DNA from: a candidate division WS6 bacterium OLB20
GTDB lineage: Bacteria > Patescibacteriota > Dojkabacteria > B142 > OLB20
Assembly: GCA_001567355.1 (NCBI GenBank)
Contig: JYNZ01000003.1
Span: 274,124-338,123 of the forward strand
DNA: 64,000 nucleotides
Reading direction: 5' to 3'
In this document: piece by piece, positions 3,567 through 38,416 of the stretch
Layout: every line of letters begins with the position of its first letter
How positions within the stretch are numbered: the stretch's first letter is position 1
Position numbers and translations under genes: made by a program
The notes under the pieces: generated by a model
Told to the model about the DNA's origin: nothing
The model's input: only the letters and a program-made list of their open reading frames with translations
The model's database searches: none

Positions 3567-5000
3567 TTATTTGGGCAATGTATTAGATATGGATACCGTT
3601 ATGAAGCCATCATCAGTGGCTGCGAGTAATTCGCTTACATCGGTAGTAGCACGTTCTATTCTAGCATACCCTTCTTCGGGATAGTAACTGAAAATACTGA
3701 CATGCTGTCCCTTATGCGGCTGATACTGCCGGATATCAATGGTATCCGAAACCTGATTGCGACCATTCATGGCCGGAAGCATCTCAGCACATAGCGTCTT
3801 CTGACCTGCGACGACATAGCGGCCGGTAAGCCTGTAGAGAAGATCAGTTATCTCGCTGTCTGCCTTTGTATCAGGTGCGGATACAAGGGCAAAACTGCAC
3901 CAGCGCCAGCGGGGATCGGTCGCCAGTGAATGTAACAACTGCGTATAGTCAGCCTCAAGCAGCAGGACACCGCTGATACTGTTTTCTACGATATCCTCAA
4001 GCGGGACGTCAAAACTGTTGAGATCAGAAGCGATCAGAATCCTGGGTCCGACAGTTTTTGTATACATATCTGCAACAACAGTTCCTTCAAACTGTTCTCC
4101 TGTGGATGTATGGACCGGTATCATCAGAAGATTTTCAGTCATCAGCCTGAATCCTTTTTTACCCGACGTACCGGTTATTTTACCGCCGAATGGTGCATAG
4201 AATTGCTGTGTGTGCTCGTTTTCGATCAGCAGAATACCCCTGTCTGCAAGACTCAGATCCACCCTGCCCTCACCTCCCGCTTTAACGGGTTTTGCCCACA
4301 GACCTCTGGCAACCGGCTCAAGTGCAAGTTCCTGCCCGGTTGTTACGTACTCTCCGTCACTGACCCGCAGGTACGGAATCAGGCTGTGCTCGGATACATA
4401 CATGCGCAGGTCAGTCGCGCTGAGAGATCCAATCTTTTCACCGGTTTTAACTGTTGAGCCCTTTGAGAGGTTGTGTGACAAAGCATATCTGCTGCCCGGA
4501 TAAATACCCGCCTCGGCAGTGACACCGGTAAGACATGACGGCACTGTCAGCACCCCCCGATCACCCTGCAGCATAAGGTTAAGCCCTGCTTCACGCCACC
4601 AGCGCTCATATCCTTCGGCACTGAGGCGCTCCAGATCCGGGAACGGATGGACAGCGCAATACACATGCCTGCGGACCGGCAGACTGTCCAGCGTATACCC
4701 TGAACCACCCAGATCAAACAACCCGCTTCTGTGCTCTTCAAGCAGCAGTGTTCTCTCAGTGCCTTCAGAATCGACTGCGGTTACTGCAGGAATACCTGAC
4801 CGTTTTCTGGCAGCAACTGAGCCCAGCCAGGTAAGCTGGGGTTGCAGCTCATCAGCGTGTACAAAAAAGAGCGGATTATCTTTTTCAGCTGCACTTCTGG
4901 CAAGCAGATACCACAGTCCGCGAGTGTCAATCAGGACATCACGGATGCTGTCTCCGGACACCTCGGCAATGACAGCAAGCACCAGTGCGGCATCAAGCAT
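3567..5000 (-). CDS. hypothetical protein with barrel-sandwich-hybrid (biotinyl/lipoyl-like) segment
   Basis: 477-aa ORF; segment VKTGEKIGSLS..YVTTGQELALEP resembles a hybrid-barrel motif; no confident family assignment. Confidence 0.5.
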   Translation of the reverse strand: MLDAALVLAVIAEVSGDSIRDVLIDTRGLWYLLARSAAEKDNPLFFVHADELQPQLTWLGSVAARKRSGIPAVTAVDSEGTERTLLLEEHRSGLFDLGGSGYTLDSLPVRRHVYCAVHPFPDLERLSAEGYERWWREAGLNLMLQGDRGVLTVPSCLTGVTAEAGIYPGSRYALSHNLSKGSTVKTGEKIGSLSATDLRMYVSEHSLIPYLRVSDGEYVTTGQELALEPVARGLWAKPVKAGGEGRVDLSLADRGILLIENEHTQQFYAPFGGKITGTSGKKGFRLMTENLLMIPVHTSTGEQFEGTVVADMYTKTVGPRILIASDLNSFDVPLEDIVENSISGVLLLEADYTQLLHSLATDPRWRWCSFALVSAPDTKADSEITDLLYRLTGRYVVAGQKTLCAEMLPAMNGRNQVSDTIDIRQYQPHKGQHVSIFSYYPEEGYARIERATTDVSELLAATDDGFITVSISNTLPK

Positions 5001-5593
5001 CCTGACCAGACCATTTCACCAGACAGAATCAGTGTGTCGCTGCCGCCGGCCAGACGTGCAAGTTGCGGCTGCAGCATAGTGCGCAGCAGGGCAAGATGCA
5101 GTCTGCGGGAGTGCTGATCCTGAGTTGTAACTGGAGCATCGAGTAATGTGCTTCGCACTTTAGAATACACCACCCCATCCCGCTTAAATACAGCAGCCGG
5201 CAGTTGCTCTGCAAGCGAGGCCAGATCTGCCGTATAAAAGTCCTCGCTCTCGGCTGTGATCACGCGGCACCCTGTAAAATCGAGCTCAAGATAGACCGCG
5301 TTTGTCTCGAGAGCGGCGAGCGCCTTGCGAACGCGTTCGGGGACAGGAGTTGATTTGCGCAGGGTATGCGACGCTGATGGCAGCAGGTCCTGTGCTGTCT
5401 TGCGTGTAAGCAGCTGACGGTCAGCATGCTCGTAATCAGTATGCTCTGCAAGACGGGAAGCCTGCCAGGGAATACGGAAACGCAAAAACCGGCTCACTGT
5501 GTAGCCGGTCGTTATGTCTCCTGTGAGAGAAATTTTTGTTCCAAAGAACTGTCCAAACGTTCTGAAAACATAGTCATGTGCAGACATGTTCAT
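4931..5593 (-). CDS. hypothetical protein (overlaps start of downstream ORF by 70 nt; possibly same gene split by a frameshift)
   Basis: 220-aa ORF, same strand, 70-nt overlap with 3567..5000. Confidence 0.4.
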   Translation of the reverse strand: MNMSAHDYVFRTFGQFFGTKISLTGDITTGYTVSRFLRFRIPWQASRLAEHTDYEHADRQLLTRKTAQDLLPSASHTLRKSTPVPERVRKALAALETNAVYLELDFTGCRVITAESEDFYTADLASLAEQLPAAVFKRDGVVYSKVRSTLLDAPVTTQDQHSRRLHLALLRTMLQPQLARLAGGSDTLILSGEMVWSGCLMPHWCLLSLPRCPETASVMS

Positions 5594-7608: not shown

Positions 7609-7640
7609 AAAAAAAATCACGCACCGTGCGAGTGCGTGAT
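7609..7640 (-). terminator. rho-independent terminator (9-bp stem atcacgcac/gtgcgtgat followed by T8 on minus strand)
   Basis: Perfect inverted repeat 7616..7640 preceded on + strand by A8 (= T8 after hairpin on - strand). Confidence 0.6.
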
Positions 7641-8102
7641 TTAAAAGCAGTTGACAGCTTAGTCAGGGCTGTCAGCAAAAGACAGAACAAATAGTTACAA
7701 GTGCAAAGAAGTTAACCTATTATGTGATTCCTGTACTTCTGTGTCAAGAATTAGAACAGTAAATTTGTCAGGTTTTCGCTTTTTGTATTAATCTCTACAC
7801 CCCACAGCGCTATCCGTGAATTAAACCTGACAACACCTGTCCGTCTGCTAGAACAGGTCGATGTACAACTTTTATACTCAACAGGGAAAATCAGGGGGTT
7901 GCTGTCGGCCTGATATCATCACCACGCTGAACAGGTACAACATTGATAATGATATCCTCCTCCTCCCGGTAGATAACTGCCCGGTCTGAATAGACCAGCA
8001 GTTTGTCGCCATTCTGGGCAAACAGGTAAAAAGCGGGGTTGGCGATTCGTAACTGATCAATATCGGAGATTGTGGCTATCGTCGGCTGCTCGTCATCGGG
8101 GA

Positions 8103-8357
8103 TCAGAAGTTTGGCTGAGACTTCTCCTGAAGCGTGCGCTCAGGTTTTTGCTCCTCAGCACCCTTCACCTCTGCAGCCGGCGCGGGTGAGGTGATCAGAC
8201 CGTTTTCGATCGCTATATGATATGACAGGCCCCCTCCAAGAAAGACAATGACAAACAGAAGCAGTTTAAGAATGGTATCGACAGCACTTGCGGAACTGCT
8301 GTTTCTGGCTGTCTGGTATGATTGCCTTGGGACTTCTGCACCGTACATATCACGCAT
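8103..8357 (-). CDS. small membrane-anchored hypothetical protein (frame appears to continue after a -1/+1 shift down to 7891)
   Basis: 84-aa ORF with TM helix; adjacent alternative frame stays open to a TGA at 7891..7893. Confidence 0.45.
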   Translation of the reverse strand: MRDMYGAEVPRQSYQTARNSSSASAVDTILKLLLFVIVFLGGGLSYHIAIENGLITSPAPAAEVKGAEEQKPERTLQEKSQPNF

Positions 8358-8408: not shown

Positions 8409-8735
8409 CTAATTGATGATGAAGTAGTTGAAGGTTGTATCAGTCTCGATCGCCTCCTCCGTCTCAATGGTAAAGCCCTGCCCGGGGACCAGATCAGTCA
8501 CACGTGAGCGTACAAACTGATCAGACGTGAGATGTACTGAAGATCCTGATGTTATCTGGATGTTATTTACACGGATGGTGCGTGTACCTGCCGGCAGCGT
8601 TACTTTTCCGGCTGCCTGGTTCTGTCCCTGTTCGATTGAGCTTGCGCTGAATGGTGAGGGAGTTGACCACCGCCTCATTGCCATAGAATACCCCGAGAAC
8701 ATCAAGATCACCTTCCACAACGAGCGCTCCGGCAA
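8409..8735 (-). CDS. probable frameshifted C-terminal continuation of ORF 8563..9645
   Basis: Same strand, 173-nt overlap in a different frame, beta-rich sequence. Confidence 0.35.
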   Translation of the reverse strand: MPERSLWKVILMFSGYSMAMRRWSTPSPFSASSIEQGQNQAAGKVTLPAGTRTIRVNNIQITSGSSVHLTSDQFVRSRVTDLVPGQGFTIETEEAIETDTTFNYFIIN

Positions 8736-9645
8736 TTACGAGCTGGTCAACATTAATACGCATTGTCGTGCTGCCCGGGTTGTCGTTAATTTCAAACAGG
8801 TTGTCTCCATTTGCCAGGCTGAATGACTCGATCTGAAGCGCTCCTGCCGCGTCACTGCGCATTCCGAACACATCGTTGCCGACATAGTAGCTGTCTACGT
8901 ACATCATGATCCGGCCAGTTACAAAGTCGGGAACAGCAACATCCTCATCATTATCAGGGTCTTCATCAGCGAGTGCCTGAGCCCGATAGAACCCTGTGAT
9001 GCGTTCTTTTTCAGCCTCTTCGTCAAAGGCAGCAAACACCTCGGATTCTATTCTCTCAACATACAGTTCTGCCTGATCCTCAGAAAGGTTGCCCTGATTG
9101 ACAGATGTCTCGATCAGCTCATAGGCGACTGATTTCTGCTGCGCAAAGAATGCGTTTACCGCCTCACTGTCACCGCCGGCAAAGAATGCCGGATCAAAAT
9201 CCTCCATGGCGCGTCCGAGAATCATTCCCTCTCCGTCAGCTTTCATTGCATAACCGGGTACATTTGCCGCTGTGAGGAAGTCACCGCGTCGTACAGGGCC
9301 GTTTTCATTACTGATACGGATCGCTGCATTACCCCTGCGGACAAGCGGCATTGCTGCCTCACCCTTCATCCATGCATCAATATGGTAGGCAGGGCTTGTA
9401 GCAATTACACCTGCCGTCAGGTTCCGGTTTGCCTCAGATGCCGGCACTATTGAAGCTTCAATATCGTTGAGCGCTGCAGCATCACTGGTATAAAGAACCT
9501 CGTCTGCAGCAACAATCTCGTTACTGATTTCCTCGGTAACAGTTGTTGTATTGGTAATGATGACTTCCGATGGCTGCTCTGCAATATACTCATCCGGGGC
9601 TGCTGTAGGCTGTGGAGTTGCTGCCGGCTGCTCGTCACCAAGCAC
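8563..9645 (-). CDS. hypothetical protein carrying a ~150-aa domain paralogous to the C-terminal domain of the upstream giant protein; GTG start, no signal peptide
   Basis: FLTAANVPGYAMKADGEGMILGRAMEDFDP aligns with ALSVSDVPGRAQKATGRGMVIGTALESWEP of ORF 9711..16142; ORF 8409..8735 looks like its frameshifted C-terminal continuation. Confidence 0.55.
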   Translation of the reverse strand: MLGDEQPAATPQPTAAPDEYIAEQPSEVIITNTTTVTEEISNEIVAADEVLYTSDAAALNDIEASIVPASEANRNLTAGVIATSPAYHIDAWMKGEAAMPLVRRGNAAIRISNENGPVRRGDFLTAANVPGYAMKADGEGMILGRAMEDFDPAFFAGGDSEAVNAFFAQQKSVAYELIETSVNQGNLSEDQAELYVERIESEVFAAFDEEAEKERITGFYRAQALADEDPDNDEDVAVPDFVTGRIMMYVDSYYVGNDVFGMRSDAAGALQIESFSLANGDNLFEINDNPGSTTMRINVDQLVIAGALVVEGDLDVLGVFYGNEAVVNSLTIQRKLNRTGTEPGSRKSNAAGRYTHHPCK

Positions 9646-9710
9646 TATCTCGGCCTGACCGTCACCGTCTGCGTCAAACTCAAACTTGCCGGATGCCTGA
9701 TTAAAGCGGA

Positions 9711-12700
9711 TTACGCCCTTGCCGTTAGATCCGACAGCCAGAGCATCGGTCCGGCATCAGGCTCGTACCATGTGTTATTAATCATCAGCAGTACCGTTGC
9801 CTGACCTGATGACGGTTCCCAGCTCTCGAGGGCTGTACCGATAACCATGCCTCTGCCGGTTGCCTTTTGAGCACGACCCGGCACGTCTGAAACGCTCAGT
9901 GCATCGCCTTTTGCAATTGGTTGTGACGTTGAGGCGATCTTGACCGGCACACGCCCTGCAAGAGCAAGGGGTTTGAAGTACCTGTAATCCAGTTCATTAT
10001 CAGGTGTGGAGGGGTTCAGCGTCAGGCCTGGATTTGTGGAGATAACACCGAGTACACGATCCCGCGATGAACTGTCGGACTTCTCGACAAGGAATCTGTT
10101 ATACAGATTTTCGTCAGAGTGTTCCACTGTTGATACGCTAACGATGTCACCTGCACTGATTGAAGTATCTGCTGTCTTTACGTATTCAGCGATGTCAGGT
10201 GTACCTGAGCCATTTGTCATATCACGCCATTCGTATGTACCACCGGAATTCTGTCTGCAGAGATAGATGGTGCCGTCCTCAGCCGCATCACGATTATAGA
10301 TCGTTGTACCGACTGTCGACGAATCACAGGTCGGCGCACTTCCTGTTGCAACATTTGCGTATACGATCCCTGCAGATGCACCCGTTATCACTACATTACC
10401 GCTGACAGTGATGTCGTCTGACAGCGCGAACCCGTCATTCGTGGAGTCCCAGCGGAAAGTCTCGGTATTAGTTCCGCCAAAGCTGAGTGTGATATCTCCT
10501 GCAGCTGTTGTGTCCTGTCCCGAATTAAGCATTACACCACCTGTAGCATCAAGACTGATATTGCCGGTCGAATCAATAAAGACATCTGTCTGGTCTGAGT
10601 AGATTTCAAACTCGCCACCCGTACCACCCCATACAGATGAATCAAGATCGATTGTAGCCCCGCCAGCGAGTCCAAGACCGGCAAAGAATTGTCCACTCCC
10701 TGCAGAAGATATCACCCAGGTCTGAATACCGGAAGAGTAACCGGTAACACCCCCTTGAGTTATATGAGTATAACTATCGCTTGGTGTATCACCTCCAAAA
10801 TAGCCCTGCCCCGTGTTATCAACCCTGAAACGTGTATTTCCGGCAACCTCTATATCAATCAGATTTGGATTACCCGCATTTGTCTCATTAATGGCAATAA
10901 TAGTATTTGCACCTGATGCAGTCTGTGCACTCCCCGGCTGCAACGTTACCGATGTATTGGCAGCAAGCAGATCAATACTTGTACTTCCATTGTAGAAGTA
11001 GAGATTTGTGCCGTTGTACCACAGATCCCCGTTTACAGGAGCAGACGGATCAACGCTGGCAGAAGGTGTTAGATTAATCTGTGCACTGCCAGCTGTTGGG
11101 GCCTTGATATCAAGCCAGGCATCAGGAGTTGCTACACCGATTCCAATCCGGTCTGCACTTCCGTCAGCGTAAAACAGGCTTGCATCTGTATCCCCTTCTA
11201 TGACAAAGTCAACCGAATCTCCGCTCTGATTGAACACAAAGCCGGAATTGTTTAGCTCCAGAATGTCAGCAGTTGTAAACTCAAGGCGGCCTGTGTTGCC
11301 GTTTGATGCATACAGGTCGATCTTGCCGTTGGCAGTTGCACCGGTACCGACACGCACCAGGTTGTCGCTGACATCGACACTGAATGAGCCTCCAAGACCG
11401 GTACCGCCAACTGCAAAGTCATCGGTGACACTTGTCAGGTAGGTTGCGCTTCCTGCATCAGTCAGGAATGAACTGAATCCGCAGTTTGTTTCGCTGGCAT
11501 CGCAGACCAGCTTGTCGCCCCAGTAAAGATCAGTAGTGGCAGGATTTGCCTGAGCTGATGTTGAAAGGTAGTTGTTCGCAGAACCGTTACCCAGATGGAT
11601 CAGATCTGCAACCTCAAGCCTGTCGTCTACTACTACGTAACCGGCATTGTTTGCGCTCAGTACAAGGTCCTCGTCACTGGCAAGGTCACCGGCCGTAATA
11701 TAGAACGGTGAATCGGACGTGATGCTGCTGGCTGTTGAATTAGTAAACACAAGGTCATTGGCAATCTGAACGTCACCGACACTGGCAAAGGTGGCGGGTA
11801 CATCAGCTCTGATACCGGTTGCAGAAATGCTGAAAATATCAGCTCCATTAATGTCGATATCAAGCAATGTACCGGTATATCCGCTGGCGGGGTTGATATA
11901 CAGAGCTGTTTCATTTGCTGCCAGCGCTGTACCAAGTGTTGTAGTACCGCTGAAGAGGAAGTCACCGTATGTCATTGCAGCTACATCATTGATATAGCCA
12001 AACTGGTTAGCTCCAAATCCAAACTCCAGACGGTCATCGGTCGTCTCATCATAACGGAAGAATGCATCGGCGTTAGTACCAAAGAACATGCTCTGGTCGT
12101 CCGCCAGAAGGACATTGCCACCTGAAAACTCCCAGCGGTCATCGGTTGTAAAGGTAATTGCACCTGTGTCACCGTCGCTTGCAAACATATTCAAGACACC
12201 GTTTGCAGTTGCACCGGTACCGATGCGGACAGTATTGGTGTCAACATCAACACTGAACGAAGATGCAAGGGTGCTGCCTCCGACTGCAAAATCATCTGCT
12301 GCCTGGGAAAGATACGTGATCGAACCCGAGTCTGTAAACAGCGAACCTCCTCCGAATGAAATACCGCAGTTTGCCTCACTTACATCGCAAAGCAGATCAT
12401 CACCCCAGTAAAGATCCCCGTTGGCACCTGCACCAACCGTACCGACACTGAGAACATCCGCAGTGTCAGTGCCAAGGTTGAGGTCACCGTCAATCTGCAG
12501 ATTACCGCTTTCATCAATACTGCCAACCTCTGTTGTCTCGCCATCATTATAGAAACTGATCCGGTAATCAGTATCACTGACGATATCAAGCAGAACGCTC
12601 ATATCTATCTCGGTATTGGATACATTGAAGTAATTGCCCCGCAGCACAAGCGCTCCGGAGTCTGCTGTAGCGCCTGTTGTCGAGTTATCAATAATGATGT

Positions 12701-15700
12701 CAAACGGTGCTGTACCCTGCACTACCACATTGCCGCCGGTAAACGTACCTGCTCCGCCAGTCACATTGAGCGCTCCACCAACAGTGAATGTATCATCAGT
12801 CTGCAACACATTCGTACCATTGTCGTACAAATTAGTGTCATTACCAATCACAATCCCGCCCGAGACACCGGTTGCCGAGGCTGTAAGCTGTCCCTGCACT
12901 GTGAGTGCATCAGGAGTGATAAGCAGGTTTGTTCCGCCATCGTATAGAAGCGTGTCGTTTCCGATTTCGATACCTGCTGAAGCACCGGTGGTGTTAAGCC
13001 TCAGCCTGCCTGCACTGACATCAAAGAAGAACGGCCCGGTAGTCAGATTAGATCCAAGCACAAAATCATCGGTAGTCTCAGTCAGATAGGTGAATGTTCC
13101 ACCATCAGTCAGAAGACTCGCAGCTCCAGCAAGCAGATCAACCGTAGAAGAACCGTCGTAGAAGTTAAGGTTGGTGCCGTTAAACCAGATATCACCCGAG
13201 TTCGGTGTTGTCGGATTTGTCCCCGGAGTAAAGTTGATATGGGCATTGCTGGCAGTTGATGCAGCGATGTCGAGGATGGCGGTGGGGGCAGTCACACCAC
13301 CAATCCCGACAAGGCCGCCGCTGTTTTGCAATACCAGATCACCATCACTTTCGATGGTAAGATCGTTTGTTGTTGTGTTATAGCTGATTGTGCCCTCGTC
13401 ACTGGTCGATGTACCGATATGCAGTGTTGCAGGACCAAGGTACAGGTCTCTCCAACGGCGGGCATTTGCGCCCAGGTCATATGTATCGTCGACACTAGGC
13501 TGAAGATCATCAGTGATTTCAAAGCTGTCCAGAGATGCTCTCCAGGCAAGTACCTCAGTGTTTGTACCACCGAAGTTAATTGCAATATCACCGGCACCGG
13601 TCGTATCAACATCCGTCTGGATATCGATATCGCCATCCGAGTAGATGTTACCTTCAACGCCAAGGTCACCATTGATAAAGGCGTCATCACCGCTCAAGGT
13701 AAATCCGCCACCGGCAATAGTTTCAGCAGTTGCTCCCAGCAGAAAATCGCCGCCACTTATATATACATCACCACCTGCAAATTCGAATGTGTCTGTATCC
13801 AGGAACTGGATTGATCCGTCATTTGTTGCATCACTCGCATAGAAAGCGAGCATGGGAGTATTGGCATCATTTTCGCCGTCTCCGATACGTACGACATTGG
13901 CTGACACATCAACACTGAATGGTGCCACGAGGGTATTACTTGCACCGATAGCCAGGTCATCCGAGGTCTGAGTCAGGTACGAAATCGTTCCGCCATCCGT
14001 AAACAGTGATGATCCCCCAAATGCAATGCCGCAGTTAGATTCGCTTACGTCGCAGATCAGGTCCTCACCCCAGTAAAGATCGCCGTTTGCAGCTGATGCA
14101 GGTCCAACACCCAGCACGTCAGCTGTATCGGTGCCGATATTGATGTTACCGTCCACCTGCAGGTTTCCGGACTGGTCAATGCTCGCTACTTCAGCTCCCG
14201 ACCCGTCATTAAGAAAACTCAGACGATAGTCAGTATCAGAGATGATATCCAGCAGAACCCGCATATCGATCTCTGTATTCGATACATTAAAATAGTTACC
14301 TCTTAAAATCATGGCACCGGAATCCGCTGTAGCGCCCGTGGTGGAGTTATCAATAATCAAGTCCTGTGCAGTGGAGTTCTGAATCAGGATGCCTCCGCCG
14401 GTAACATTAATACTGCCACCAGTAACATCAAGCGTATCGCTTACCACAACTGTTCCGCCGGATGACGACAGCGTCAGACTTGAGTTGCTGTCACTGATAC
14501 CGCTGTCTGCAATTGTGAGTCCGCTGCCAGCCACAATGTTGTTTTCGACATACAATGAATCGCCAACACCGAGCAGGTCGAGAATGTACATGTCATCTGC
14601 AGTTGCAGAGTCAAGTACAAATGATGTGTTCGTAAGCGGTGTGTTGTCACCAGAGTATGTTCCGATAATGACATCAAAGTCATTCTCAAATGTTCCTGTA
14701 TTGCTGCCGCTGTTAAACGTAAGCGACTCCCAGAGACCATAATCGCTGTTACAGCCGCTGCCGTTTGCAAGACATACCGTTTGATTGCCCCAGTAAAGCG
14801 GATTTGTTGCAGCGCCGCCTGCTGCAGAAGTTGCAAGCCGGTCATTTGAACCGGCCCCCAGAGACAGGATCGAGCCACCTACATTCATCGTGCCGCTTAC
14901 AGTCAGATTGCCGGTTGTACCCACATCAGTAAGTGCAAGAAGAACATTGGTACCATCACTCAACTCAAGGCGGTCATCAGTTGTTTCATCGTAGTAGATC
15001 TGAATGTCATCGTTTGTGCCGAAATTAAGCGAGATGTTGTCAACAATCCTCTGACTGCCACCGCTCCACTGCAGCAGATCCCCGATATATTCAAATCGAC
15101 CAGTGTCACCCGATGAAGAGTAGAAATCAAGCTTGGCATTACCTGATGATCCGTCTCCGATACGTGCAAGGTTTTCGCTCTCGTCAACGCTGAATGCGGA
15201 TACCAGCGTCGAAGAAAGCGACAGGTCAGATCCCGAAGAGGTCAGATACGTCACATTGGCATTAATTGTCCAGAGTCCGCCTCCACCTCCGGATGCAGCG
15301 TTGAGGGCATGGAGAATGGAGTTTGTGCCGGCAGGCAATGAAGTGTTTGAGCCGTCACTGAATGCGATGTCGCCGGTAAGTGAATCGTTAAACGTCAAAA
15401 CGGCTGAACTTGAAATACCGCCACCGTTTACGTTCAGGTCTCCGATCGTTGTGATATCACCTGTATTTGATACCGTGAACACATCACTGCTTGCCACCTG
15501 CATCTGGATCAGATTGGGAGTATTGGCACCGTCTTCGTTGAGATAAATAAGCGGAGTGGTTACGTTTCCGGTTGCCTGGATGGATGCCGGGGATAACTGG
15601 ACAAAACCGGATGAAGCAATACCGCCCAGCCGTTCCGCCTCATAGGCAAACGGTACAGTAGTAAGCTGCTTGCGTGAAAAAGTCTCAGCAGAAGAGAAAT

Positions 15701-16142
15701 CTCCGTTTCCGTCATCATCGAACTCGATTTCGACATACACACTTGAGTCATCCCCCCACGACAGACCTGACCCGCTACAGCTTCCCCCTGGTGATTCCCA
15801 GTTTCCACAGACAGAGTTGAGACTCAGACTGAATACACCCTCATAGTCACCAAGTTCGATATTTTCGTGTGGTTCGCGCCATAGCAGTGTCCCACCGACA
15901 GGGTCTGAGTAGATGCTGACTCGGAGGTCGCAGGTATCAGCACCGGCAGCTACACATGATGGTGTCCCCGTAATCAGGTTTGTACCATCAGGCCGGTTAA
16001 CGATCTTACCCTGGAAATTCAATGTGCTTGCTACAGCAGCACGGATATCAACGGGAGAGACAAGCACCACGAAACACAGCGCGAGCAGTGCAAAAATAGT
16101 TAAAAGTACCCTGTTTTTTCTAGTATGCGAGTTCAACTCCAT
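9711..16142 (-). CDS. giant (2143 aa) secreted/surface repeat protein with N-terminal signal anchor
   Basis: Signal/TM (LLTIFALLALCFVVLV); four copies of a module containing LYWG-x-D-L/V-C-D-x-S-E-x-N-CG, two of them extended (about 170 aa at about 75 to 80 percent identity); motif DLGANARRWRDLYLG reminiscent of phage tail-fibre proteins; sequence is Gly/Thr/Ser/Asn-rich. Confidence 0.85.
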   Translation of the reverse strand: MELNSHTRKNRVLLTIFALLALCFVVLVSPVDIRAAVASTLNFQGKIVNRPDGTNLITGTPSCVAAGADTCDLRVSIYSDPVGGTLLWREPHENIELGDYEGVFSLSLNSVCGNWESPGGSCSGSGLSWGDDSSVYVEIEFDDDGNGDFSSAETFSRKQLTTVPFAYEAERLGGIASSGFVQLSPASIQATGNVTTPLIYLNEDGANTPNLIQMQVASSDVFTVSNTGDITTIGDLNVNGGGISSSAVLTFNDSLTGDIAFSDGSNTSLPAGTNSILHALNAASGGGGGLWTINANVTYLTSSGSDLSLSSTLVSAFSVDESENLARIGDGSSGNAKLDFYSSSGDTGRFEYIGDLLQWSGGSQRIVDNISLNFGTNDDIQIYYDETTDDRLELSDGTNVLLALTDVGTTGNLTVSGTMNVGGSILSLGAGSNDRLATSAAGGAATNPLYWGNQTVCLANGSGCNSDYGLWESLTFNSGSNTGTFENDFDVIIGTYSGDNTPLTNTSFVLDSATADDMYILDLLGVGDSLYVENNIVAGSGLTIADSGISDSNSSLTLSSSGGTVVVSDTLDVTGGSINVTGGGILIQNSTAQDLIIDNSTTGATADSGAMILRGNYFNVSNTEIDMRVLLDIISDTDYRLSFLNDGSGAEVASIDQSGNLQVDGNINIGTDTADVLGVGPASAANGDLYWGEDLICDVSESNCGIAFGGSSLFTDGGTISYLTQTSDDLAIGASNTLVAPFSVDVSANVVRIGDGENDANTPMLAFYASDATNDGSIQFLDTDTFEFAGGDVYISGGDFLLGATAETIAGGGFTLSGDDAFINGDLGVEGNIYSDGDIDIQTDVDTTGAGDIAINFGGTNTEVLAWRASLDSFEITDDLQPSVDDTYDLGANARRWRDLYLGPATLHIGTSTSDEGTISYNTTTNDLTIESDGDLVLQNSGGLVGIGGVTAPTAILDIAASTASNAHINFTPGTNPTTPNSGDIWFNGTNLNFYDGSSTVDLLAGAASLLTDGGTFTYLTETTDDFVLGSNLTTGPFFFDVSAGRLRLNTTGASAGIEIGNDTLLYDGGTNLLITPDALTVQGQLTASATGVSGGIVIGNDTNLYDNGTNVLQTDDTFTVGGALNVTGGAGTFTGGNVVVQGTAPFDIIIDNSTTGATADSGALVLRGNYFNVSNTEIDMSVLLDIVSDTDYRISFYNDGETTEVGSIDESGNLQIDGDLNLGTDTADVLSVGTVGAGANGDLYWGDDLLCDVSEANCGISFGGGSLFTDSGSITYLSQAADDFAVGGSTLASSFSVDVDTNTVRIGTGATANGVLNMFASDGDTGAITFTTDDRWEFSGGNVLLADDQSMFFGTNADAFFRYDETTDDRLEFGFGANQFGYINDVAAMTYGDFLFSGTTTLGTALAANETALYINPASGYTGTLLDIDINGADIFSISATGIRADVPATFASVGDVQIANDLVFTNSTASSITSDSPFYITAGDLASDEDLVLSANNAGYVVVDDRLEVADLIHLGNGSANNYLSTSAQANPATTDLYWGDKLVCDASETNCGFSSFLTDAGSATYLTSVTDDFAVGGTGLGGSFSVDVSDNLVRVGTGATANGKIDLYASNGNTGRLEFTTADILELNNSGFVFNQSGDSVDFVIEGDTDASLFYADGSADRIGIGVATPDAWLDIKAPTAGSAQINLTPSASVDPSAPVNGDLWYNGTNLYFYNGSTSIDLLAANTSVTLQPGSAQTASGANTIIAINETNAGNPNLIDIEVAGNTRFRVDNTGQGYFGGDTPSDSYTHITQGGVTGYSSGIQTWVISSAGSGQFFAGLGLAGGATIDLDSSVWGGTGGEFEIYSDQTDVFIDSTGNISLDATGGVMLNSGQDTTAAGDITLSFGGTNTETFRWDSTNDGFALSDDITVSGNVVITGASAGIVYANVATGSAPTCDSSTVGTTIYNRDAAEDGTIYLCRQNSGGTYEWRDMTNGSGTPDIAEYVKTADTSISAGDIVSVSTVEHSDENLYNRFLVEKSDSSSRDRVLGVISTNPGLTLNPSTPDNELDYRYFKPLALAGRVPVKIASTSQPIAKGDALSVSDVPGRAQKATGRGMVIGTALESWEPSSGQATVLLMINNTWYEPDAGPMLWLSDLTARA

Positions 16143-16648: not shown

Positions 16649-17747
16649 TCAGGCCCCGTGCCTGATGTTGAGTATGTCACCTTCTTTTACGACATAGTCC
16701 TTACCCTCGACACGCAACTTGCCTGCAGTCTTTGCACCCAGCCAGCCACCGGTTGCTACAAAGTCTTCGTACGATACGACTTCGGCCCTGATAAACTTGT
16801 CCTCGAAGTCTGTGTGGATCGCACCTGCTGCTTGCGGAGCCGTGCTGCCGGAACGTACACTCCACGCCCGGACTTCTTTTTTTCCGGCTGTAAAAAAACG
16901 TCATCAGACCCAGAACCGTATATGCCTCTCTTGTTAATTGCTCAAGGCCCGTATACTCGATACCAAGCTCCTGCATAAACTCACTGAGCTCATCAGGAGC
17001 CAGCCTTGAGAGTTCATACTCCTGTTTAATGTCAAGTGGAAGTACCCGCGCGGCATCAGGAAGACCAAGTCTTTGTCGCAACATCTTTTCGACCTCCGGA
17101 CCCGTCCTGGACCATCTTCCGTTAATCACATAGATTACCGGCTTATCTGTGAGCAGACGCAACTGTTTTCTGAAGGCAGACAGATCTCTGTCGTCAGCAT
17201 CTGCAGACACAGTAATCGCAAGTTGTCCTTTTTCGAGTGTTTCACGGATGTCGTGTATGAGCGCTAGATACTTCTCTCCACTGGAGTCCTTTCTGGCCTC
17301 ACGCGCTATCCTTGTCTGTTGCTTTTCGACAGTGTCGAGATCTTTCAGGATCAGTTCGGTCTCTATTGTCTCTCTGTCGCGGACAGCATCCACCGTACCG
17401 TCGACATGGACAACGTCATCATCAATAAAATCCCGGATGACGTGTACAATCGCATTAGTCATGCCAATATGGCCCAGAAAGTCGTTGCCAAGCCCTTCAC
17501 CCTCATGCGCACCCTTAACAAGCCCGGCAATATCATTAAACTCGACAACGGCGGGAACAATACTGTCCGTCTGAACGATATCTGCCAGCACCTGCAGCCT
17601 TGTATCAGCCACCGGAACCACTCCGACGTTTGGATCGATTGTACAGAACGGGTAATTCTCAGCCGCTATAGTCTGATTCGTTAGTGCGTTAAACAATGTG
17701 GATTTTCCAACATTCGGTAACCCGACAATTCCAAGTGAGAGAGACAT
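16649..17747 (-). CDS. ychF: ribosome-binding ATPase YchF (Obg-family GTPase), interrupted by a 1-nt frameshift in an A7/T7 run at 16891..16897
   Basis: G1 motif [18 protein letters not shown]; correct TGS C-terminus ([23 protein letters not shown]...[19 protein letters not shown]) is in another frame ending at 16649. Confidence 0.85.
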
Positions 17748-17757
17748 TTTAAAGGAT

Positions 17758-19164
17758 TTAAAGTGTAATGGATTGTTTCCAGTCCGGTATGTGAGCAGGA
17801 ACACCGTCATTTGTAAGAATACTGGCCAACGCTTCGCTACGCTCAGGCTCTGCGTGCACCAGGAACGCCTGCTTAAGTCGCTTCAGATCGTACAGTGACA
17901 GCCATTGCTGCAGCGTTGGCGAATCCGCATGGGCTGAAAACCCGCGAAGATAATGCACCCCCGCCCTAACCTGAACATCTTTTTTGTTTATGGAAATCTG
18001 ACTAGCGCCGTCAACCAGTGATCGTCCTGTAGTCTGCTCAGCCTGGAATCCGACGAAGACTAATGAACTGTTAGTATCCGGAGCGTGTGAGGCTATATGA
18101 TGCATGATCCTACCGCCCTCGGCCATACCGCTGCCAGCGATTATGATGCTTTTTGTTGCCGATGCCAGCCTTAGCGATTTCTTGTGGGTTCTGATATATC
18201 GAAGCTGATCGAAATCGAACCGTCTATTGCTCTGTCGCTTTGCAGTTCTAGGTTTCCTGCTGTTTTCCGCAGAATACTCGGTTATAACACCAAAATGGTC
18301 AGTACGGTCATTAAAGTATCCGGAGAACTGTGTGTAGATTTTAGTCGCCCGTATCGCCATCGGACTATCAATATAAACTTGAACATCTCCGTTAATGCGA
18401 CCTTGATCGAAGGCGATCGACAGAATTTCAAGTAGTTCTTGCGTACGATGTATAGCAAAGCATGGGATTATAACATTTCCATCACGTTCGGTCGTTTTGG
18501 TTATTACACTGATCAATTCATTCAACGTCTCGTTGCGATCCGGATGTTCAATGCCACCATAGAGTGACTCCATAGTTATGTACTCTGGAGAGAAGCTTGT
18601 ACCATTACTGAAGGTGTTAATGATTGTCTGATCAGCCCGACCGATATCACCCGAAAATAACAGCTGTCTTCCGCTGATTGTAATCTGCACGCTTGCTGCT
18701 CCAAGAATATGTCCTGCGGGGACAAAGCGAACCGTGATGCCCTCTGCCGGTTGAAAGTCCTTACCGAAGATCTCTGTACGGAACATTGTCAGAGACTTCA
18801 TTGCGTCACGCGTATCATAGAGGATACCCGGCAGCGTGTATGGCATTGCTTCTGAATACTCGAACGTGCCTTGTTTTTTTGCCTCCAGCTCCTGGATCTT
18901 GGCCGAGTCCAGCAGTACAAGCTCACTCAGTGCTGCTGTTGGTGGTGTCATATAGATAGGTCCTGCAAACCCCTCCCTGACCAGCCTTGGGATAAGTCCG
19001 CAATGATCCATGTGCGCGTGAGTAAGTATCACAAAATCTATTTCGGACGGGACAAAACCGAACGGCTCCTTGTTTCGATCCTCCACATCGGGTCCCTGAA
19101 ACATACCGCAGTCGATTAGTATTTTTCTGCTGTCATCCTCTAGTAAGTAACAGGAGCCGGTCAC
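17758..19164 (-). CDS. MBL-fold beta-CASP ribonuclease (CPSF73/RNase J-like)
   Basis: HAHMDHCG motif (ILTHAHMDHCG), beta-CASP and RNA-specificity region; 468 aa. Confidence 0.75.
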   Translation of the reverse strand: MTGSCYLLEDDSRKILIDCGMFQGPDVEDRNKEPFGFVPSEIDFVILTHAHMDHCGLIPRLVREGFAGPIYMTPPTAALSELVLLDSAKIQELEAKKQGTFEYSEAMPYTLPGILYDTRDAMKSLTMFRTEIFGKDFQPAEGITVRFVPAGHILGAASVQITISGRQLLFSGDIGRADQTIINTFSNGTSFSPEYITMESLYGGIEHPDRNETLNELISVITKTTERDGNVIIPCFAIHRTQELLEILSIAFDQGRINGDVQVYIDSPMAIRATKIYTQFSGYFNDRTDHFGVITEYSAENSRKPRTAKRQSNRRFDFDQLRYIRTHKKSLRLASATKSIIIAGSGMAEGGRIMHHIASHAPDTNSSLVFVGFQAEQTTGRSLVDGASQISINKKDVQVRAGVHYLRGFSAHADSPTLQQWLSLYDLKRLKQAFLVHAEPERSEALASILTNDGVPAHIPDWKQSITL

Positions 19165-37119: not shown

Positions 37120-37195
37120 GCTGGAATAGCTCAGATGGTAGAGCGCACCCATGGTAAGGGTGAGGTCTCGGGTTCGATCCCCGATTCCAGCTCCA
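37120..37195 (+). tRNA. tRNA-Thr (anticodon GGU), CCA encoded
   Basis: Cloverleaf: acceptor gctggaa/ttccagc, D arm gctc/gagc, anticodon stem caccc/gggtg with loop atGGTaa, T arm tcggg-ttcgatc-cccga. Confidence 0.75.
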
Positions 37196-37388
37196 GAGTT
37201 TTTGAGCTGTCTCCAACAGCGAAAAATTACTCTGGAGACGTCCCCTGGAGCATGTGATATACAAATCACATGCGGACGGCCAGCGACTTCCGGTCAGAAG
37301 TGCACAAGGATACCTGGATGTGCCGTATGCAAGTAATAATAACCTTACATCACTACCCTGCCCGACTGCTCTCAGCTATACTTGACTC

Positions 37389-38153: not shown

Positions 38154-38416
38154 AATATCCCATTTTCGTAACAGGCAATCTCCGGGCAACCTACATCACC
38201 ACGAAGCCCTGTTTTAAATATTACATCACAGACCCCCTGCGCCCTACTCTCCAGGCAACAACAGCGCAGCCACTCAGCAGATAATCAATAGCTGACCACC
38301 ACCGATCAAAACACCACGGTGGACAAACAAGACCCGGTCTGTGCCGCACTCGCGTCTGCATGACGTTGTCATCAGAAAACAAAATCATGTATACTCCAGT
38401 TCGTCCCGTATTGCTG

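What the first reader, a model, noticed from the sequence alone, without database searches (positions are those of the whole stretch)
9711..16142. 2143-aa secreted giant protein built from four diverged LYWG...C...CG repeat modules and a tail-fibre-like motif
The protein has an N-terminal signal anchor. Its body is Gly/Thr/Ser/Asn-rich and carries NxT/S sequons. The module LYWG[DENQ].[LVT][ILV]CD.SE.NCG occurs four times, with DNA copies near 11.52, 12.41, 14.08 and 14.79 kb. Two of these sit inside ~170-aa modules at ~75-80% identity (around 12.0-12.7 kb and 13.6-14.4 kb). DLGANARRWRDLYLG resembles motifs seen in phage tail-fibre and collar proteins. Giant repeat-rich surface proteins like this are characteristic of episymbiotic or small-genome bacteria and are candidates for host attachment. 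The near-repeats are also assembly hazards.
Basis: partly seen in the sequence, partly recalled or inferred. Interest (0 to 1): 0.7.

Follow-up and report, generated by a model that had tools for sequence, protein, structure and literature searches.

The report
Phage-tail-fibre-like surface fibre of CPR bacterium
The giant gene most likely encodes a secreted fibre built like a phage tail fibre in a tiny symbiotic (CPR) bacterium, related at its base to the prey-recognition fibres of the predator Bdellovibrio; the 2143-aa reading frame is a truncated reading of a ~2577-aa gene.

Summary
The ORF (9711..16142, minus strand, 2143 aa) and its four LYWG..C-x6-C motifs are real. It is identical to hypothetical protein TR69_WS6001000649 of the MAG "candidate division WS6 (Dojkabacteria) bacterium OLB20". 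It is not the whole gene. Intact orthologues (2501 and 3183 aa) align colinearly through two single-base frameshifts (window ~9750 and 8626) to a stop at 8409, giving ~2577 aa.

Predicted order of parts:
- Signal peptide.
- A 140-aa beta-sandwich matching the N-terminal domain of Bdellovibrio "mosaic adhesive trimer" (MAT) fibres, below the curated cut-off.
- A ~1800-aa repetitive body whose fold could not be determined.
- A phi29-gp12-type (Peptidase G2) intramolecular-chaperone domain, supported by sequence profile and predicted fold. Its invariant DxAE motif sits on the gp12 cleavage site.
- A degenerate second copy of that domain.
- An acidic segment.
- A small C-terminal domain resembling a phage tailspike C-terminus (sub-threshold match).

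The neighbours are housekeeping genes, not a prophage. Related N-domains occur in several CPR lineages. Host attachment is inferred, not shown.

The repeats are only ~72% identical at DNA level, so they are not an assembly hazard. The sequon count is not significantly enriched.

I rate this a new variant of a known kind, of moderate interest.

The parts
8409..16142 (-). Restored fibre gene, 2577 aa plus TAG stop, after correcting two 1-nt indels.
   Evidence: Colinear tblastn of intact orthologues P0003 and P0002 across three frames. Frame reading and restoration.
9711..16142 (-). It equals TR69_WS6001000649 of WS6 bacterium OLB20.
16038..16142 (-). Signal peptide, aa 1-35: RKNR, then a 17-aa hydrophobic core, then IRA|A.
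   Evidence: Hydropathy maximum at aa 10-32. In relatives the same domain starts at aa ~30-50. No SignalP run.
15618..16037 (-). N-terminal beta-sandwich domain, aa 36-175, with two Cys pairs. Related to the Bdellovibrio MAT N-domain.
   Evidence: NCBIfam NF053851 Bdello_MAT_N: E 1.9e-7 and 31 bits, below the 60-bit cut-off; 20 of 22 orthologues hit, best 7e-11. AF2 pLDDT 77. No PDB homologue.
10197..15617 (-). Fibre body, aa 176-1982. Gly/Thr/Ser/Asn/Asp-rich mosaic of diverged repeat modules. Fold not determined.
   Evidence: Self-BLAST. No Pfam, PHROG or PDB hit.
14748..14798 (-). LYWG..C-x6-C motif 1 (aa 449-465, divergent: LYWGNQTVCLANGSGCN).
14028..14078 (-). LYWG..C-x6-C motif 2 (aa 689-705).
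12363..12413 (-). LYWG..C-x6-C motif 3 (aa 1244-1260).
11478..11528 (-). LYWG..C-x6-C motif 4 (aa 1539-1555).
13755..14507 (-). Large repeat copy A (aa 546-796).
   Evidence: 59% identity to copy B overall, 78% over 121 aa. DNA ~72%.
12102..12839 (-). Large repeat copy B (aa 1102-1347).
13434..13478 (-). DLGANARRWRDLYLG motif (aa 889-903).
   Evidence: The surrounding 80 aa hit phage DNA by tblastn: marine virus AG-345-D19 at E 5e-8, and Xanthomonas phage LucasX (1554-aa hypothetical protein) at E 7e-4.
13266..13310 (-). VGIGGVTAPTAILDI (aa 945-959). It fits the MAT/S74 'capping loop' consensus V-G-G/N-pi-x-x-P-x-x-x-L. A second, looser copy IGIGVATPDAWLDI lies at 11106-11147.
   Evidence: Read directly from the sequence. 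Consensus taken from PMC10769870.
10251..10337 (-). Cys-pair segment APTC..(22)..C just before the cleavage motif (aa 1936-1964). Candidate distal tip of the mature fibre.
   Evidence: Cys positions. Its position relative to DIAE is inference.
9750..10196 (-). Domain X1 (aa 1983-2131): phi29-gp12-type (Peptidase G2) intramolecular chaperone. Begins with the predicted cleavage motif P|DIAEYV (10179-10196).
   Evidence: Profile vs PDB hits gp12 6qz9_A at E 1e-3 and 3gqh_A at 2e-3, with DxAE aligned on residue 1 of the released fragment. AF2 pLDDT 88. Foldseek 3suc/3gqh at 3-5e-4. BFVD 'Preneck appendage protein' at 2e-9. PF11962 is above threshold in homologues P0030 and P0032.
9750..9751 (-). 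Frameshift 1: one base missing in GCCGGACC relative to orthologues. It creates the stop of the 2143-aa ORF 13 codons later.
9184..9471 (-). Domain X2 (aa 2225-2320): degenerate second copy of domain X without the DxAE motif. Lies in ORF 8563..9645.
   Evidence: phmmer X1 vs P0025 at E 3e-13. Alignment.
8824..9183 (-). Acidic segment (aa 2321-2440); helical or coiled-coil character is a guess from the sequence.
   Evidence: Sequence. Conserved in P0002, P0003 and P0028. No coiled-coil predictor run.
8626..8626 (-). Frameshift 2: one extra G in ACAGGGACAG relative to orthologues.
8412..8823 (-). Conserved C-terminal module (aa 2441-2577): LANGDNLFEI... segment plus a terminal ~72-aa domain ending FNYFIIN.
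   Evidence: Pfam K1-lyase_C at E 9e-5 and 23.3 bits, below the 27-bit cut-off; 21 of 43 family members hit, best 5e-7. H_lectin hits 9 of 43. Found at the extreme C-terminus of at least 64 family proteins, S74-bearing ones included.
7614..7642 (-). Terminator-like hairpin plus T-run ending the transcription unit (fibre gene plus the small g157-like gene).
   Evidence: No terminator-like site on the minus strand between the three ORF pieces.

Best explanation
The locus most likely encodes one long exported fibre protein of a Dojkabacteria (CPR) cell. It is built on the plan of a phage receptor-binding fibre and of the Bdellovibrio MAT fibres.

Proposed mechanism, with the status of each step:
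1. A Sec signal peptide exports the chain. The N-terminal hydrophobic signal is shown; cleavage is inferred.
2. The MAT-N-like beta-sandwich stays next to the cell surface as the anchoring end. The homology is shown at sub-threshold level; the role is inferred from MAT.
3. The ~1800-aa repeat body forms a long, probably trimeric beta-structured shaft carrying C-x6-C loops. The repeats and paired Cys are shown; the fold and the trimer are inferred.
4. The phi29-gp12-type domain (X1) nucleates trimer folding from the C-terminal end. It then cuts the chain in front of its invariant Asp (..GSGTP|DIAEYV), exposing the distal tip. The domain identity and motif register are shown; trimer nucleation and cleavage are inferred.
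5. The exposed tip binds a surface structure of the host cell on which the bacterium lives (inferred).

Orthologues, and the window after removing two 1-nt indels, carry three further elements after X1: a degenerate second X copy, an acidic segment, and a small C-terminal domain with a sub-threshold match to a phage tailspike C-terminus. Their role is open. They may be part of the released pro-region, or a carbohydrate-binding end that stays attached.

The 2143-aa stop is most probably an indel artefact of the read data. Even if it is real, the truncated product still ends just after a complete X1 domain. That is the layout of gp12 and of many family members.
For: - Identity and taxon: 100% match to WS6 bacterium OLB20. 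All full-length homologues are giant proteins (1475-3688 aa); the named ones are Dojkabacteria.
- Full gene: the gene continues through two frame changes. Synteny with intact orthologues is conserved.
- N-domain: Bdello_MAT_N matches 20 of 22 orthologues, best E 7e-11. An exhaustive profile search finds 1473 cluster representatives, with the domain almost always at aa ~30-190 of 500-4000-aa proteins. Relatives occur in Dojkabacteria, Saccharibacteria, Moraniibacteriota and Levybacteria genomes.
- Chaperone domain X1:
  - PF11962 Peptidase_G2 is above threshold in homologues and overlaps domain X.
  - The 33-sequence profile hits phi29 gp12. The D-x-A-E motif (E invariant; D and A at least 90% conserved) aligns on residue 1 of the released C-terminal fragment 3gqh.
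  - The AF2 model has pLDDT 88. Its top PDB fold matches are 3suc and 3gqh. There are 59 viral matches at E<=1e-3, led by 'Preneck appendage protein' and including tail-fibre proteins.
  - tblastn hits the C-terminus of PA5oct virion protein gp359, which lies next to the long-tail-fibre gene.
- S74 in relatives: close homologue P0010 carries Peptidase_S74 (E 2.5e-13) at the equivalent position. Of 164 N-domain proteins, 61 have domain X and 11 have SDxRxK. This mirrors the tip and chaperone swapping described for MATs.
- C-terminal domain: K1-lyase_C and H_lectin matches.
- Export: single N-terminal hydrophobic segment; 14 of 15 Cys lie in seven close pairs and the remaining one is in the signal peptide.
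- Cellular, not viral, context: ychF, RNase J, the CCA enzyme, CysRS, S6-SSB-S18, an S41 protease and HtrA surround the gene.
Against: - The protein itself gets no Pfam or PHROG hit.
- The MAT_N match covers only profile positions 12-72 of 162. It is below the curated cut-off (31 bits against 60).
- The gp12 sequence match is marginal (E ~1e-3) and the TM-score to the solved structure is only ~0.5.
- The fold and oligomeric state of the 1800-aa body could not be determined.
- gp12 releases its chaperone with ATP inside the cell, according to the abstract of Xiang et al. 2009 as I recall it. An exported protein cannot do that.
- If X1 cleaves, the conserved C-terminal domain would be lost from the fibre, which is hard to reconcile with a binding role for that domain.
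- The host of Dojkabacteria is unknown, and no binding, localisation or expression data exist.
- A Logan assembly of SRR29904084 reproduces the frameshifts exactly. They may therefore be real and the gene may be decaying.
Confidence: 0.68

Rival explanations
1. The gene is a decaying pseudogene. The frameshifts are real, so the cell makes at most a C-terminally truncated 2143-aa product, and the locus is no longer under selection.
For: - The same 2143-aa and 360-aa ORFs lie on a Logan contig assembled from another SRA run (SRR29904084). That contig is 100% identical over 12,432 bp.
- Three contigs carry the exact protein.
Against: - At least five frame changes relative to intact orthologues fall within ~17 kb. 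They hit the CCA-adding enzyme and ychF as well, which points to systematic indel errors in the reads rather than selective decay of this gene.
- Both indels in the fibre gene are single bases in short G/C runs.
- Apart from the two indels, all three pieces remain open and alignable to the orthologues: 66%, 45% and 59% identity to P0003, with no other stops.
- No terminator-like site separates the pieces.
- The truncation falls just after a complete X1 domain, so even a truncated product would keep the gp12-like layout.
Confidence: 0.15
2. The protein is a structural envelope or S-layer-type fibre of the CPR cell. It contributes to the cell surface or biofilm matrix and has no specific host-recognition role.
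For: - The protein is acidic (pI ~4.05) and rich in Thr/Ser/Gly/Asn, like many surface-layer proteins.
- Its position among housekeeping genes is conserved.
- No recognisable ligand-binding domain was found in the body.
Against: - Every recognisable domain has its closest relatives in host- or prey-recognition fibres: MAT N-domain, gp12 chaperone, S74 in paralogues, tailspike C-terminal domain.
- The family shows the chaperone swapping and repeat-number variation typical of receptor-binding proteins.
Confidence: 0.12
3. The protein is a tailspike-like enzyme. Part of the body would be a beta-helix depolymerase that degrades host capsule or wall polymers, as phi29 gp12 and the Klebsiella K1 lyase do. 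Binding would be secondary.
For: Its two best-characterised relatives at the C-terminal end, phi29 gp12 and the K1 capsule lyase, are enzymes.
Against: - No lyase or hydrolase family or catalytic motif was detected anywhere in 2577 aa.
- The body is made of short diverged repeats rather than one long beta-helix domain.
- The similarity is confined to chaperone and terminal modules, which are shared by enzymatic and non-enzymatic fibres alike.
Confidence: 0.06
4. The gene is a phage or prophage tail-fibre gene that happens to lie in this genome.
For: The phage-type chaperone and C-terminal domains, and the phage hits.
Against: - The protein has an N-terminal secretion signal and a MAT-type N-domain.
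- Both flanks are housekeeping genes in the same order in other Dojkabacteria.
- No phage structural family was found in neighbouring ORFs.
- No paralogue or phage module lies elsewhere in the window.
Confidence: 0.02

Closest known systems
Bdellovibrio bacteriovorus MAT (mosaic adhesive trimer) chimeric fibre proteins (Bd2133, Bd3182 and others; Caulton et al. 2024, PMC10769870)
   Same: - Signal peptide followed directly by a conserved beta-rich N-terminal domain of ~130-140 aa. The HMM match is significant and recurs in 20 of 22 orthologues.
- A long repetitive fibre body.
- One capping-loop-like motif, IGGVTAPTAIL.
- The family swaps its C-terminal module: S74 in some members, other domains in others.
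- The N-domain has no PDB homologue in either case.
- The organism's lifestyle depends on contact with other cells.
   Different: - The N-domain scores below NCBIfam's cut-off, matches only the first half of the model, and carries CPR-specific Cys-pair insertions.
- The protein is ~2.5 times longer than typical MATs (~1000 aa).
- The chaperone here is G2 (gp12) type, which that paper does not describe.
- A further conserved C-terminal module follows the chaperone.
- The organism is a CPR bacterium, a group absent from that paper's list of MAT-bearing taxa.
- Trimer state and surface location are untested.
Bacteriophage phi29 pre-neck appendage (tailspike) gp12 and its D4 autochaperone (MEROPS G2 / Pfam PF11962; PDB 3GQH, 3SUC, 6QZ9)
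   Same: - Domain X1 has the same predicted fold; gp12 is the top PDB hit.
- The same D-x-A-E start, in register with the first residue of the released gp12 fragment.
- The same position at the end of a fibrous body.
- Conserved GVIS..PG motif.
   Different: - Sequence identity is ~15%.
- PF11962 does not reach threshold on this protein.
- gp12's body is an enzymatic beta-helix of ~600 aa attached to a virion.
- gp12 ends with D4, whereas the restored CPR protein continues for ~445 aa.
- gp12 matures in the cytoplasm with ATP-dependent release (from memory of Xiang et al. 2009).
Phage tail fibres and tailspikes with a Peptidase_S74 intramolecular chaperone (T5 pb1, K1F endosialidase)
   Same: - The same logic: fibre plus self-cleaving C-terminal chaperone.
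- Close homologues of this protein (P0010, P0014, P0018, P0020, P0022) carry S74 where this one carries domain X.
- VGIG..P...L motif before the chaperone.
   Different: This protein has no S74 domain and no SDxxxK motif. It is a cellular secreted protein rather than a virion component.
Klebsiella phage K1 capsule lyase C-terminal domain (PF24146) and H-type lectin domain (PF09458)
   Same: The last ~70 aa match K1-lyase_C in 21 of 43 family members and H_lectin in 9 of 43. As in tailspikes, the domain is at the extreme C-terminus.
   Different: The match is below Pfam threshold for this protein (23.3 bits against 27). No lyase domain precedes it. Here it follows a chaperone domain.
Giant fibrous capture proteins of other contact-dependent predators (for example Aureispira grappling hook GhpA, PDB 9FLP)
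   Same: A very large secreted fibre in a bacterium that must catch another cell.
   Different: Only a chance-level hit (E 0.079). No shown homology.

Membership tests
MAT (mosaic adhesive trimer) fibre family | N-terminal signal peptide. | tested here: inconclusive
   There is one strong hydrophobic segment at aa 10-32, preceded by RKNR and followed by IRA|A. The conserved domain starts at aa ~30-50 in relatives. No dedicated predictor was available.
MAT (mosaic adhesive trimer) fibre family | Conserved beta-rich N-terminal domain of ~130 aa directly after the signal peptide (NCBIfam NF053851 Bdello_MAT_N, cut-off 60 bits). | tested here: inconclusive
   The match is significant but sub-threshold: 31 bits, E 1.9e-7, profile positions 12-72 of 162. 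It hits 20 of 22 orthologues, best 7.2e-11. The AF2 model is a beta-sandwich with no PDB match, as reported for MAT. No structural comparison with Bdellovibrio models was possible because afdb50 was unavailable.
MAT (mosaic adhesive trimer) fibre family | Intertwined trimeric beta-helix or beta-prism shaft. | not testable with these tools
   No multimer prediction is available, and sequence profiles of shaft modules found no solved relative.
MAT (mosaic adhesive trimer) fibre family | Capping-loop motif V-G-G/N-pi-x-x-P-x-x-x-L. | tested here: met
   IGGVTAPTAIL at aa 947-957 fits, if I is accepted for V and V for pi. A looser copy IGVATPDAWL is at aa 1668-1677. This is a short-motif match only.
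MAT (mosaic adhesive trimer) fibre family | Exchangeable C-terminal module (S74 or another domain). | tested here: met
   Homologue P0010 has S74 at E 2.5e-13. Of 164 N-domain proteins, 61 carry domain X and 11 carry SDxRxK.
MAT (mosaic adhesive trimer) fibre family | Located on the cell surface and binds prey or host epitopes. | not testable with these tools
   This needs an experiment.
Peptidase G2 / phi29 gp12-type intramolecular chaperone (PF11962) | Pfam PF11962 at or above the gathering score. | tested here: not met
   There is no hit on this protein at E<=1. The threshold is met in homologues P0030 (29.7 bits) and P0032 (25.3), and nearly met in P0038 (23.2), over the start of the same domain.
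Peptidase G2 / phi29 gp12-type intramolecular chaperone (PF11962) | Fold of the gp12 D4 autochaperone (tandem beta-tulip). | tested here: met
   AF2 pLDDT 88 and pTM 0.83. Top Foldseek PDB hits are 3suc and 3gqh_A (E 3-5e-4, TM ~0.5), followed by beta-tulip capsid decoration proteins. BFVD 'Preneck appendage protein' hits at E 2e-9 with TM 0.67.
Peptidase G2 / phi29 gp12-type intramolecular chaperone (PF11962) | Conserved acidic cleavage motif at the domain start (the released gp12 fragment begins DFAEYF). | tested here: met
   DIAEYV at aa 1983-1988. The E is invariant, and D and A are at least 90% conserved across 33 family sequences. The motif aligns to residue 1 of 3gqh_A and to residues 692-695 of 6qz9_A. 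The second copy X2 lacks it.
Peptidase G2 / phi29 gp12-type intramolecular chaperone (PF11962) | Position at the C-terminal end of a fibrous or beta-helical trimer. | tested here: inconclusive
   The domain follows the repeat body. It is the last domain of the 2143-aa ORF and of many family members. In the restored gene ~445 aa follow it.
Peptidase G2 / phi29 gp12-type intramolecular chaperone (PF11962) | Autoproteolysis after trimerisation. | not testable with these tools
   This needs expression of the fragment with D1983 and E1986 mutants.
Peptidase_S74 tail-fibre chaperone (PF13884) | S74 domain with an SDxxxK motif. | tested here: not met
   No Pfam hit and no such motif in this protein. 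It is present in paralogous family members only.

The most novel reading that the evidence does not exclude
CPR bacteria (Dojkabacteria, and by N-domain relatives also Saccharibacteria, Moraniibacteriota and Levybacteria) would possess a large, so far undescribed family of exported phage-receptor-binding-protein-like fibres. These would be homologous at their cell-proximal domain to the Bdellovibrio MAT prey-recognition fibres. Their chaperones would be interchangeable (S74 or gp12/G2 type), and a conserved post-chaperone C-terminal module would follow that has no counterpart in MATs or phages. On this reading, one ancestral fibre design is the common host- or prey-recognition device of unrelated bacteria that live on other cells, and these genes are the specificity determinants of CPR episymbiosis.
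Probability: 0.35. Interest if true: 0.75.

Novelty: new variant of a known kind. Interest (0 to 1): 0.5.

Why it matters
How CPR/Patescibacteria find and hold their hosts is largely unknown beyond type IV pili in Saccharibacteria. For Dojkabacteria even the host is unknown.

This protein, annotated as hypothetical, now has a domain-by-domain reading that gives a concrete candidate. The reading ties it to two experimentally understood systems: Bdellovibrio MAT fibres and the phi29 gp12 autochaperone. The hypotheses are testable with a recombinant fragment: self-cleavage at P1982|D1983, trimer formation and glycan or host binding of the tip.

The work also shows that this N-domain family is large (1473 cluster representatives) and spread over several CPR lineages. 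That extends the 'predator fibre' idea to episymbionts.

There is a practical point as well. The public annotation splits the gene into two 'hypothetical proteins' because of single-base indels. The same contig carries further frame breaks in housekeeping genes. Anyone using this MAG should know this.

Tried and rejected
- Pfam, PHROGs and PDB sequence searches with the whole ORF and the downstream ORF found nothing. One call exceeded the size limit.
- blastp of the protein against itself returned only the identity hit, so I had to fragment the query.
- The profile search of the N-domain in the word-indexed protein database returned only 5 extra proteins. The exhaustive search was needed.
- The search for related loci with alignments A2 and A3 failed for lack of a conserved stretch, so no viral-contig distribution of domain X was obtained.
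- afdb50 was not available, so no direct structural comparison with Bdellovibrio MAT models could be made.
- The listing of cluster members gave names for only one family branch, WS6: 'T4-like proximal tail fiber' and 'hemagglutinin-like'.
- A profile of the GDLWWNGTNLYFYDG shaft module against PDB and Pfam gave only chance hits, to antibody V-domains and a weak gp12-short_mid match. The shaft fold remains unassigned.
- Foldseek of the N-domain against PDB gave only generic Ig-like hits at E>0.1.
- Rejected ideas:
  - Prophage origin: the context is housekeeping genes.
  - Glycosylation-sequon enrichment: shuffle test.
  - Repeat-collapse hazard.
  - Alternative genetic code as the cause of the stop: the stop is TAA and relatives read through by frame, not by codon.
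- Literature searches found no paper linking CPR with S74, G2 or MAT-type fibres. This is absence of evidence within the library only.

Full report
**What is there**

The ORF 9711..16142 (minus strand, 2143 aa) exists as described. It is rich in Gly, Thr, Ser, Asp and Asn. It has 15 Cys. DLGANARRWRDLYLG sits at aa 889.

Fragment-wise self-comparison shows a mosaic of diverged internal repeats:
- The best pair, aa 546-796 and 1102-1347, is 59% identical overall.
- That pair reaches 71% over the best 170 aa and 78% over the best 121 aa.
- Several other module types recur at 25-48%.

At DNA level the copies are 72-81% identical. The longest exact internal repeat is 19 nt, and there is no tandem array. 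The repeats are therefore real but are not an assembly hazard.

NxS/T sequons number 38 against 30.6 +/- 4.6 in shuffles (p ~0.07), which follows from composition. One Cys lies in the N-terminal hydrophobic segment. The other 14 form seven close pairs: two in the N-domain, four C-x6-C, and one C-x22-C before the C-terminal domain.

**Origin**

The protein is 100% identical to MAG protein TR69_WS6001000649 of 'candidate division WS6 bacterium OLB20', which belongs to Dojkabacteria, a CPR/Patescibacteria lineage. All 23 other hits are giant proteins of 1475-3688 aa; those that carry a name are Dojkabacteria. Several carry Pfam Peptidase_S74 or Laminin_G_3.

**The ORF is a truncated reading of a longer gene**

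Orthologues P0003 (2501 aa) and P0002 (3183 aa) contain, in one chain, the counterpart of the 2143-aa ORF. The same chain also covers the next ORF (8563..9645, 360 aa, 'hypothetical protein ...648') and a further 76 aa.

tblastn places P0003 colinearly on three window segments:
- 16112->9759 in frame -3
- 9747->8587 in frame -2
- 8639->8412 in frame -3

Reading the three frames shows two single-base indels in short G/C runs. One base is missing at ~9750 (..WYEPDAG|..DALAVGSNGKGVIRFN..). One extra G is present at 8626 (..IQRKLNRTG|QNQAAGKVTL..). Correcting them gives one 2577-aa frame ending ...TFNYFIIN, with TAG at 8409-8411.

The same stretch of the window has further frame breaks relative to intact, syntenic orthologues. 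They affect the CCA-adding enzyme, ychF and a 632-aa protein that is split into ORFs 4931..5593 and 3567..5000. At least five breaks in ~17 kb, including housekeeping genes, point to systematic indel errors in the data.

Against that, a Logan assembly of SRA run SRR29904084 is 100% identical over 12,432 bp, all breaks included. I could not establish whether that run is independent of the original data or what platform it used, so I leave this open. Either way, the stop of the 2143-aa ORF falls 13 codons after the end of a complete domain.

There is a terminator-like hairpin after ychF (16626-16602). There is none on the minus strand between the ORF pieces. A strong one follows the small downstream gene (7642-7614).

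**N-terminal end**

After a signal-peptide-like segment (aa 1-35) comes a ~140-aa domain.

NCBIfam recognises it as Bdello_MAT_N, the N-terminal domain of the 'mosaic adhesive trimer' chimeric fibres of Bdellovibrio:
- On the whole protein the match is E 7e-6; on the isolated domain it is 1.9e-7 and 31 bits.
- 20 of 22 orthologues match, best 7.2e-11.
- All scores are below the curated 60-bit cut-off.
- Only profile positions 12-72 of 162 are covered.

According to Caulton et al. 2024 (PMC10769870), MATs are surface fibres of about 1000 aa with this layout:
- a signal peptide;
- an invariant ~130-aa beta-rich N-domain thought to sit at the predator surface;
- an intertwined trimeric beta-helix shaft with capping loops (V-G-G/N-pi-x-x-P-x-x-x-L);
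- exchangeable tips, either an S74 chaperone-protease or other adhesive folds.

The window protein has IGGVTAPTAIL at aa 947-957, which fits that loop consensus.

The AF2 model of the N-domain (pLDDT 77) is a beta-sandwich with no PDB neighbour better than E 0.1. The paper says the same of the MAT N-domain.

An exhaustive profile search finds 1473 cluster representatives at E<=1e-3 and 300 at E<=1e-10. The domain almost always lies at aa ~30-190 of proteins 500-4000 aa long. Named members are WS6 proteins auto-annotated as 'T4-like proximal tail fiber' or 'hemagglutinin-like'.

A scan of one genome per species finds relatives in Dojkabacteria, Saccharibacteria/Saccharimonadales, Moraniibacteriota and Levybacteria. 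It also finds some in MAGs labelled Gammaproteobacteria. The paper's own table of MATs outside Bdellovibrio lists predators and Omnitrophica but no CPR.

**C-terminal end: domain X1**

The last ~150 aa of the 2143-aa ORF (aa 1983-2131, 'X1') belong to a widespread family. In that family the domain often forms the very C-terminus of fibrous proteins that carry collagen or YadA-head repeats.

Four lines of evidence connect X1 to the phi29 gp12 autochaperone:
- **Pfam.** PF11962 (Peptidase_G2, the autoproteolytic intramolecular chaperone of phi29 pre-neck appendage gp12) is above threshold in two family members. It overlaps the start of the domain.
- **Sequence profile.** A 33-sequence profile hits gp12 in the PDB (6qz9_A at E 1e-3; 3gqh_A at 2e-3). 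The family's most conserved motif is D-x-A-E, with the E invariant. It aligns on residue 1 of the released C-terminal fragment, DFAEYF. Chain lengths 854 and 163 place that residue at 692, which is the cleavage point.
- **Predicted fold.** The AF2 model (pLDDT 88, pTM 0.83) has 3suc and 3gqh as best PDB folds (E 3-5e-4). Beta-tulip capsid decoration proteins follow. There are 59 viral models at E<=1e-3, led by 'Preneck appendage protein' (E 2e-9, TM 0.67) and including tail-fibre proteins. The beta-tulip nature of gp12 D4 and its similarity to 'bacterial adhesion proteins' are noted in bioRxiv 10.1101/216911, citing Xiang et al. 2009.
- **Phage genomes.** tblastn hits the C-terminus of a virion protein next to the long-tail-fibre gene of jumbo phage PA5oct.

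I therefore read ..GSGTP|DIAEYV.. (P1982|D1983) as a candidate self-cleavage site.

**C-terminal end: what follows X1 in the restored gene**

- **A second copy of domain X (X2).** It is degenerate and lacks DxAE.
- **An acidic segment.**
- **A conserved terminal module.** Its last ~70 aa match Pfam K1-lyase_C, the C-terminal domain of a Klebsiella phage capsule lyase, in 21 of 43 family members (best 5e-7). The window's own copy scores 9e-5 and 23.3 bits, below the 27-bit cut-off. H_lectin matches in 9 of 43. This module closes at least 64 of the ~200 family proteins I held, S74-bearing ones included.

Among 164 proteins with the N-domain, 61 have domain X and 11 have an SDxRxK (S74) motif. 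The LYWG..C-x6-C motif is confined to 19 close relatives.

**The shaft**

I could not assign a fold to the shaft. There are no family or PDB hits for the whole protein or for a module profile.

The DLGANARRWRDLYLG segment does find phage DNA: a marine virus at E 5e-8, and a 1554-aa hypothetical protein of Xanthomonas phage LucasX at E 7e-4.

**Context**

Upstream lie CysRS, the CCA enzyme, RNase J and YchF. Downstream lie two small unknown genes, S6-SSB-S18, a 632-aa unknown protein, an S41 protease and HtrA. The order is the same in another Dojkabacteria contig. No phage structural family is found in neighbouring ORFs, and the window holds no paralogue. This is a chromosomal cellular gene.

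**Interpretation**

Shown:
- the composition of the gene;
- its continuation through two indels;
- the homology of the two ends to MAT-N (weak but recurrent) and to the gp12 chaperone (sequence plus predicted fold);
- the family's size and its spread across CPR lineages;
- the cellular context.

Inferred:
- cleavage of the signal peptide;
- the trimeric fibre;
- chaperone-driven folding and self-cleavage;
- surface display with the N-domain proximal;
- binding of a host cell.

Open problems:
- the fate and role of the ~445 aa after X1;
- how a gp12-type chaperone would be released outside the cell without ATP;
- whether the frameshifts are real.

**Verdict**

Its interpretation ('tail-fibre-like giant surface protein, candidate for host attachment') is supported and can be made much more specific. 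The stated length, the sequon point and the assembly-hazard point do not hold.

Relative to what is known, this is a new variant of a known kind. It is a MAT-like, phage-RBP-like fibre in a CPR bacterium. It uses a G2-type instead of an S74 chaperone, it has an extra conserved C-terminal module, and it is unusually long. Interest is moderate.

Noticed in passing
window 3567-5593, 16655-17810, 19368-20805: Several genes near the fibre gene are also frame-broken relative to intact syntenic orthologues: ychF (break ~16875-16897), the CCA-adding enzyme (~20626-20645), and a 632-aa unknown protein split into ORFs 4931..5593 and 3567..5000 (junction ~4995). With the two breaks in the fibre gene, that makes at least five in ~17 kb. 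A Logan assembly of SRR29904084 is nevertheless 100% identical over 12.4 kb.
   Followed up: partly
window 7894-8121 and 6804-7517: The two small unknown genes downstream of the fibre gene are conserved in that position in other Dojkabacteria. They correspond to a 157-aa and a 240-aa protein in L004. They share a ~65-aa domain with each other (cross hits). In the window, only the C-terminal half of the 157-aa one is matched.
   Followed up: no
L006 1-7679: In the genome carrying orthologue P0002, two other giant genes lie immediately upstream of the fibre gene. They are 2676 and 2139 aa and carry DUF2341 plus several Laminin_G_3 domains. Together they form a cluster of giant surface-protein genes.
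   Followed up: no
window 8412-8823; family proteins P0010, P0014, P0018, P0020, P0022: The conserved C-terminal module (ending F-N/D-Y/W-x-I-I-N) lies after the intramolecular chaperone in both the S74 and the G2 branches of the family. A self-cleaving chaperone would detach it from the fibre, so this position is unexpected. Its role is unexplained.
   Followed up: partly
L015, L016, L017, L020, L022: N-domain relatives (27-35% identity) also occur on contigs of MAGs labelled 'uncultured Gammaproteobacteria', twice on one contig. I did not check whether the label or the binning is right.
   Followed up: no
PDB 9flp_A residues 3724-3757; PDB 8h2i_cU residues 1118-1191: The domain-X profile gives a chance-level hit to the Aureispira grappling-hook protein GhpA (E 0.079). 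It gives a better one (E 0.0017, with a GADYAE motif) to a 1343-aa chain named 'P22' in entry 8h2i.
   Followed up: no
window 37120-53373: Five tRNA genes were found: Thr-GGT, Tyr-GTA, Thr-TGT, Trp-CCA and Arg-CCT. GC skew changes sign around 40-44 kb. They are unrelated to the finding.
   Followed up: no
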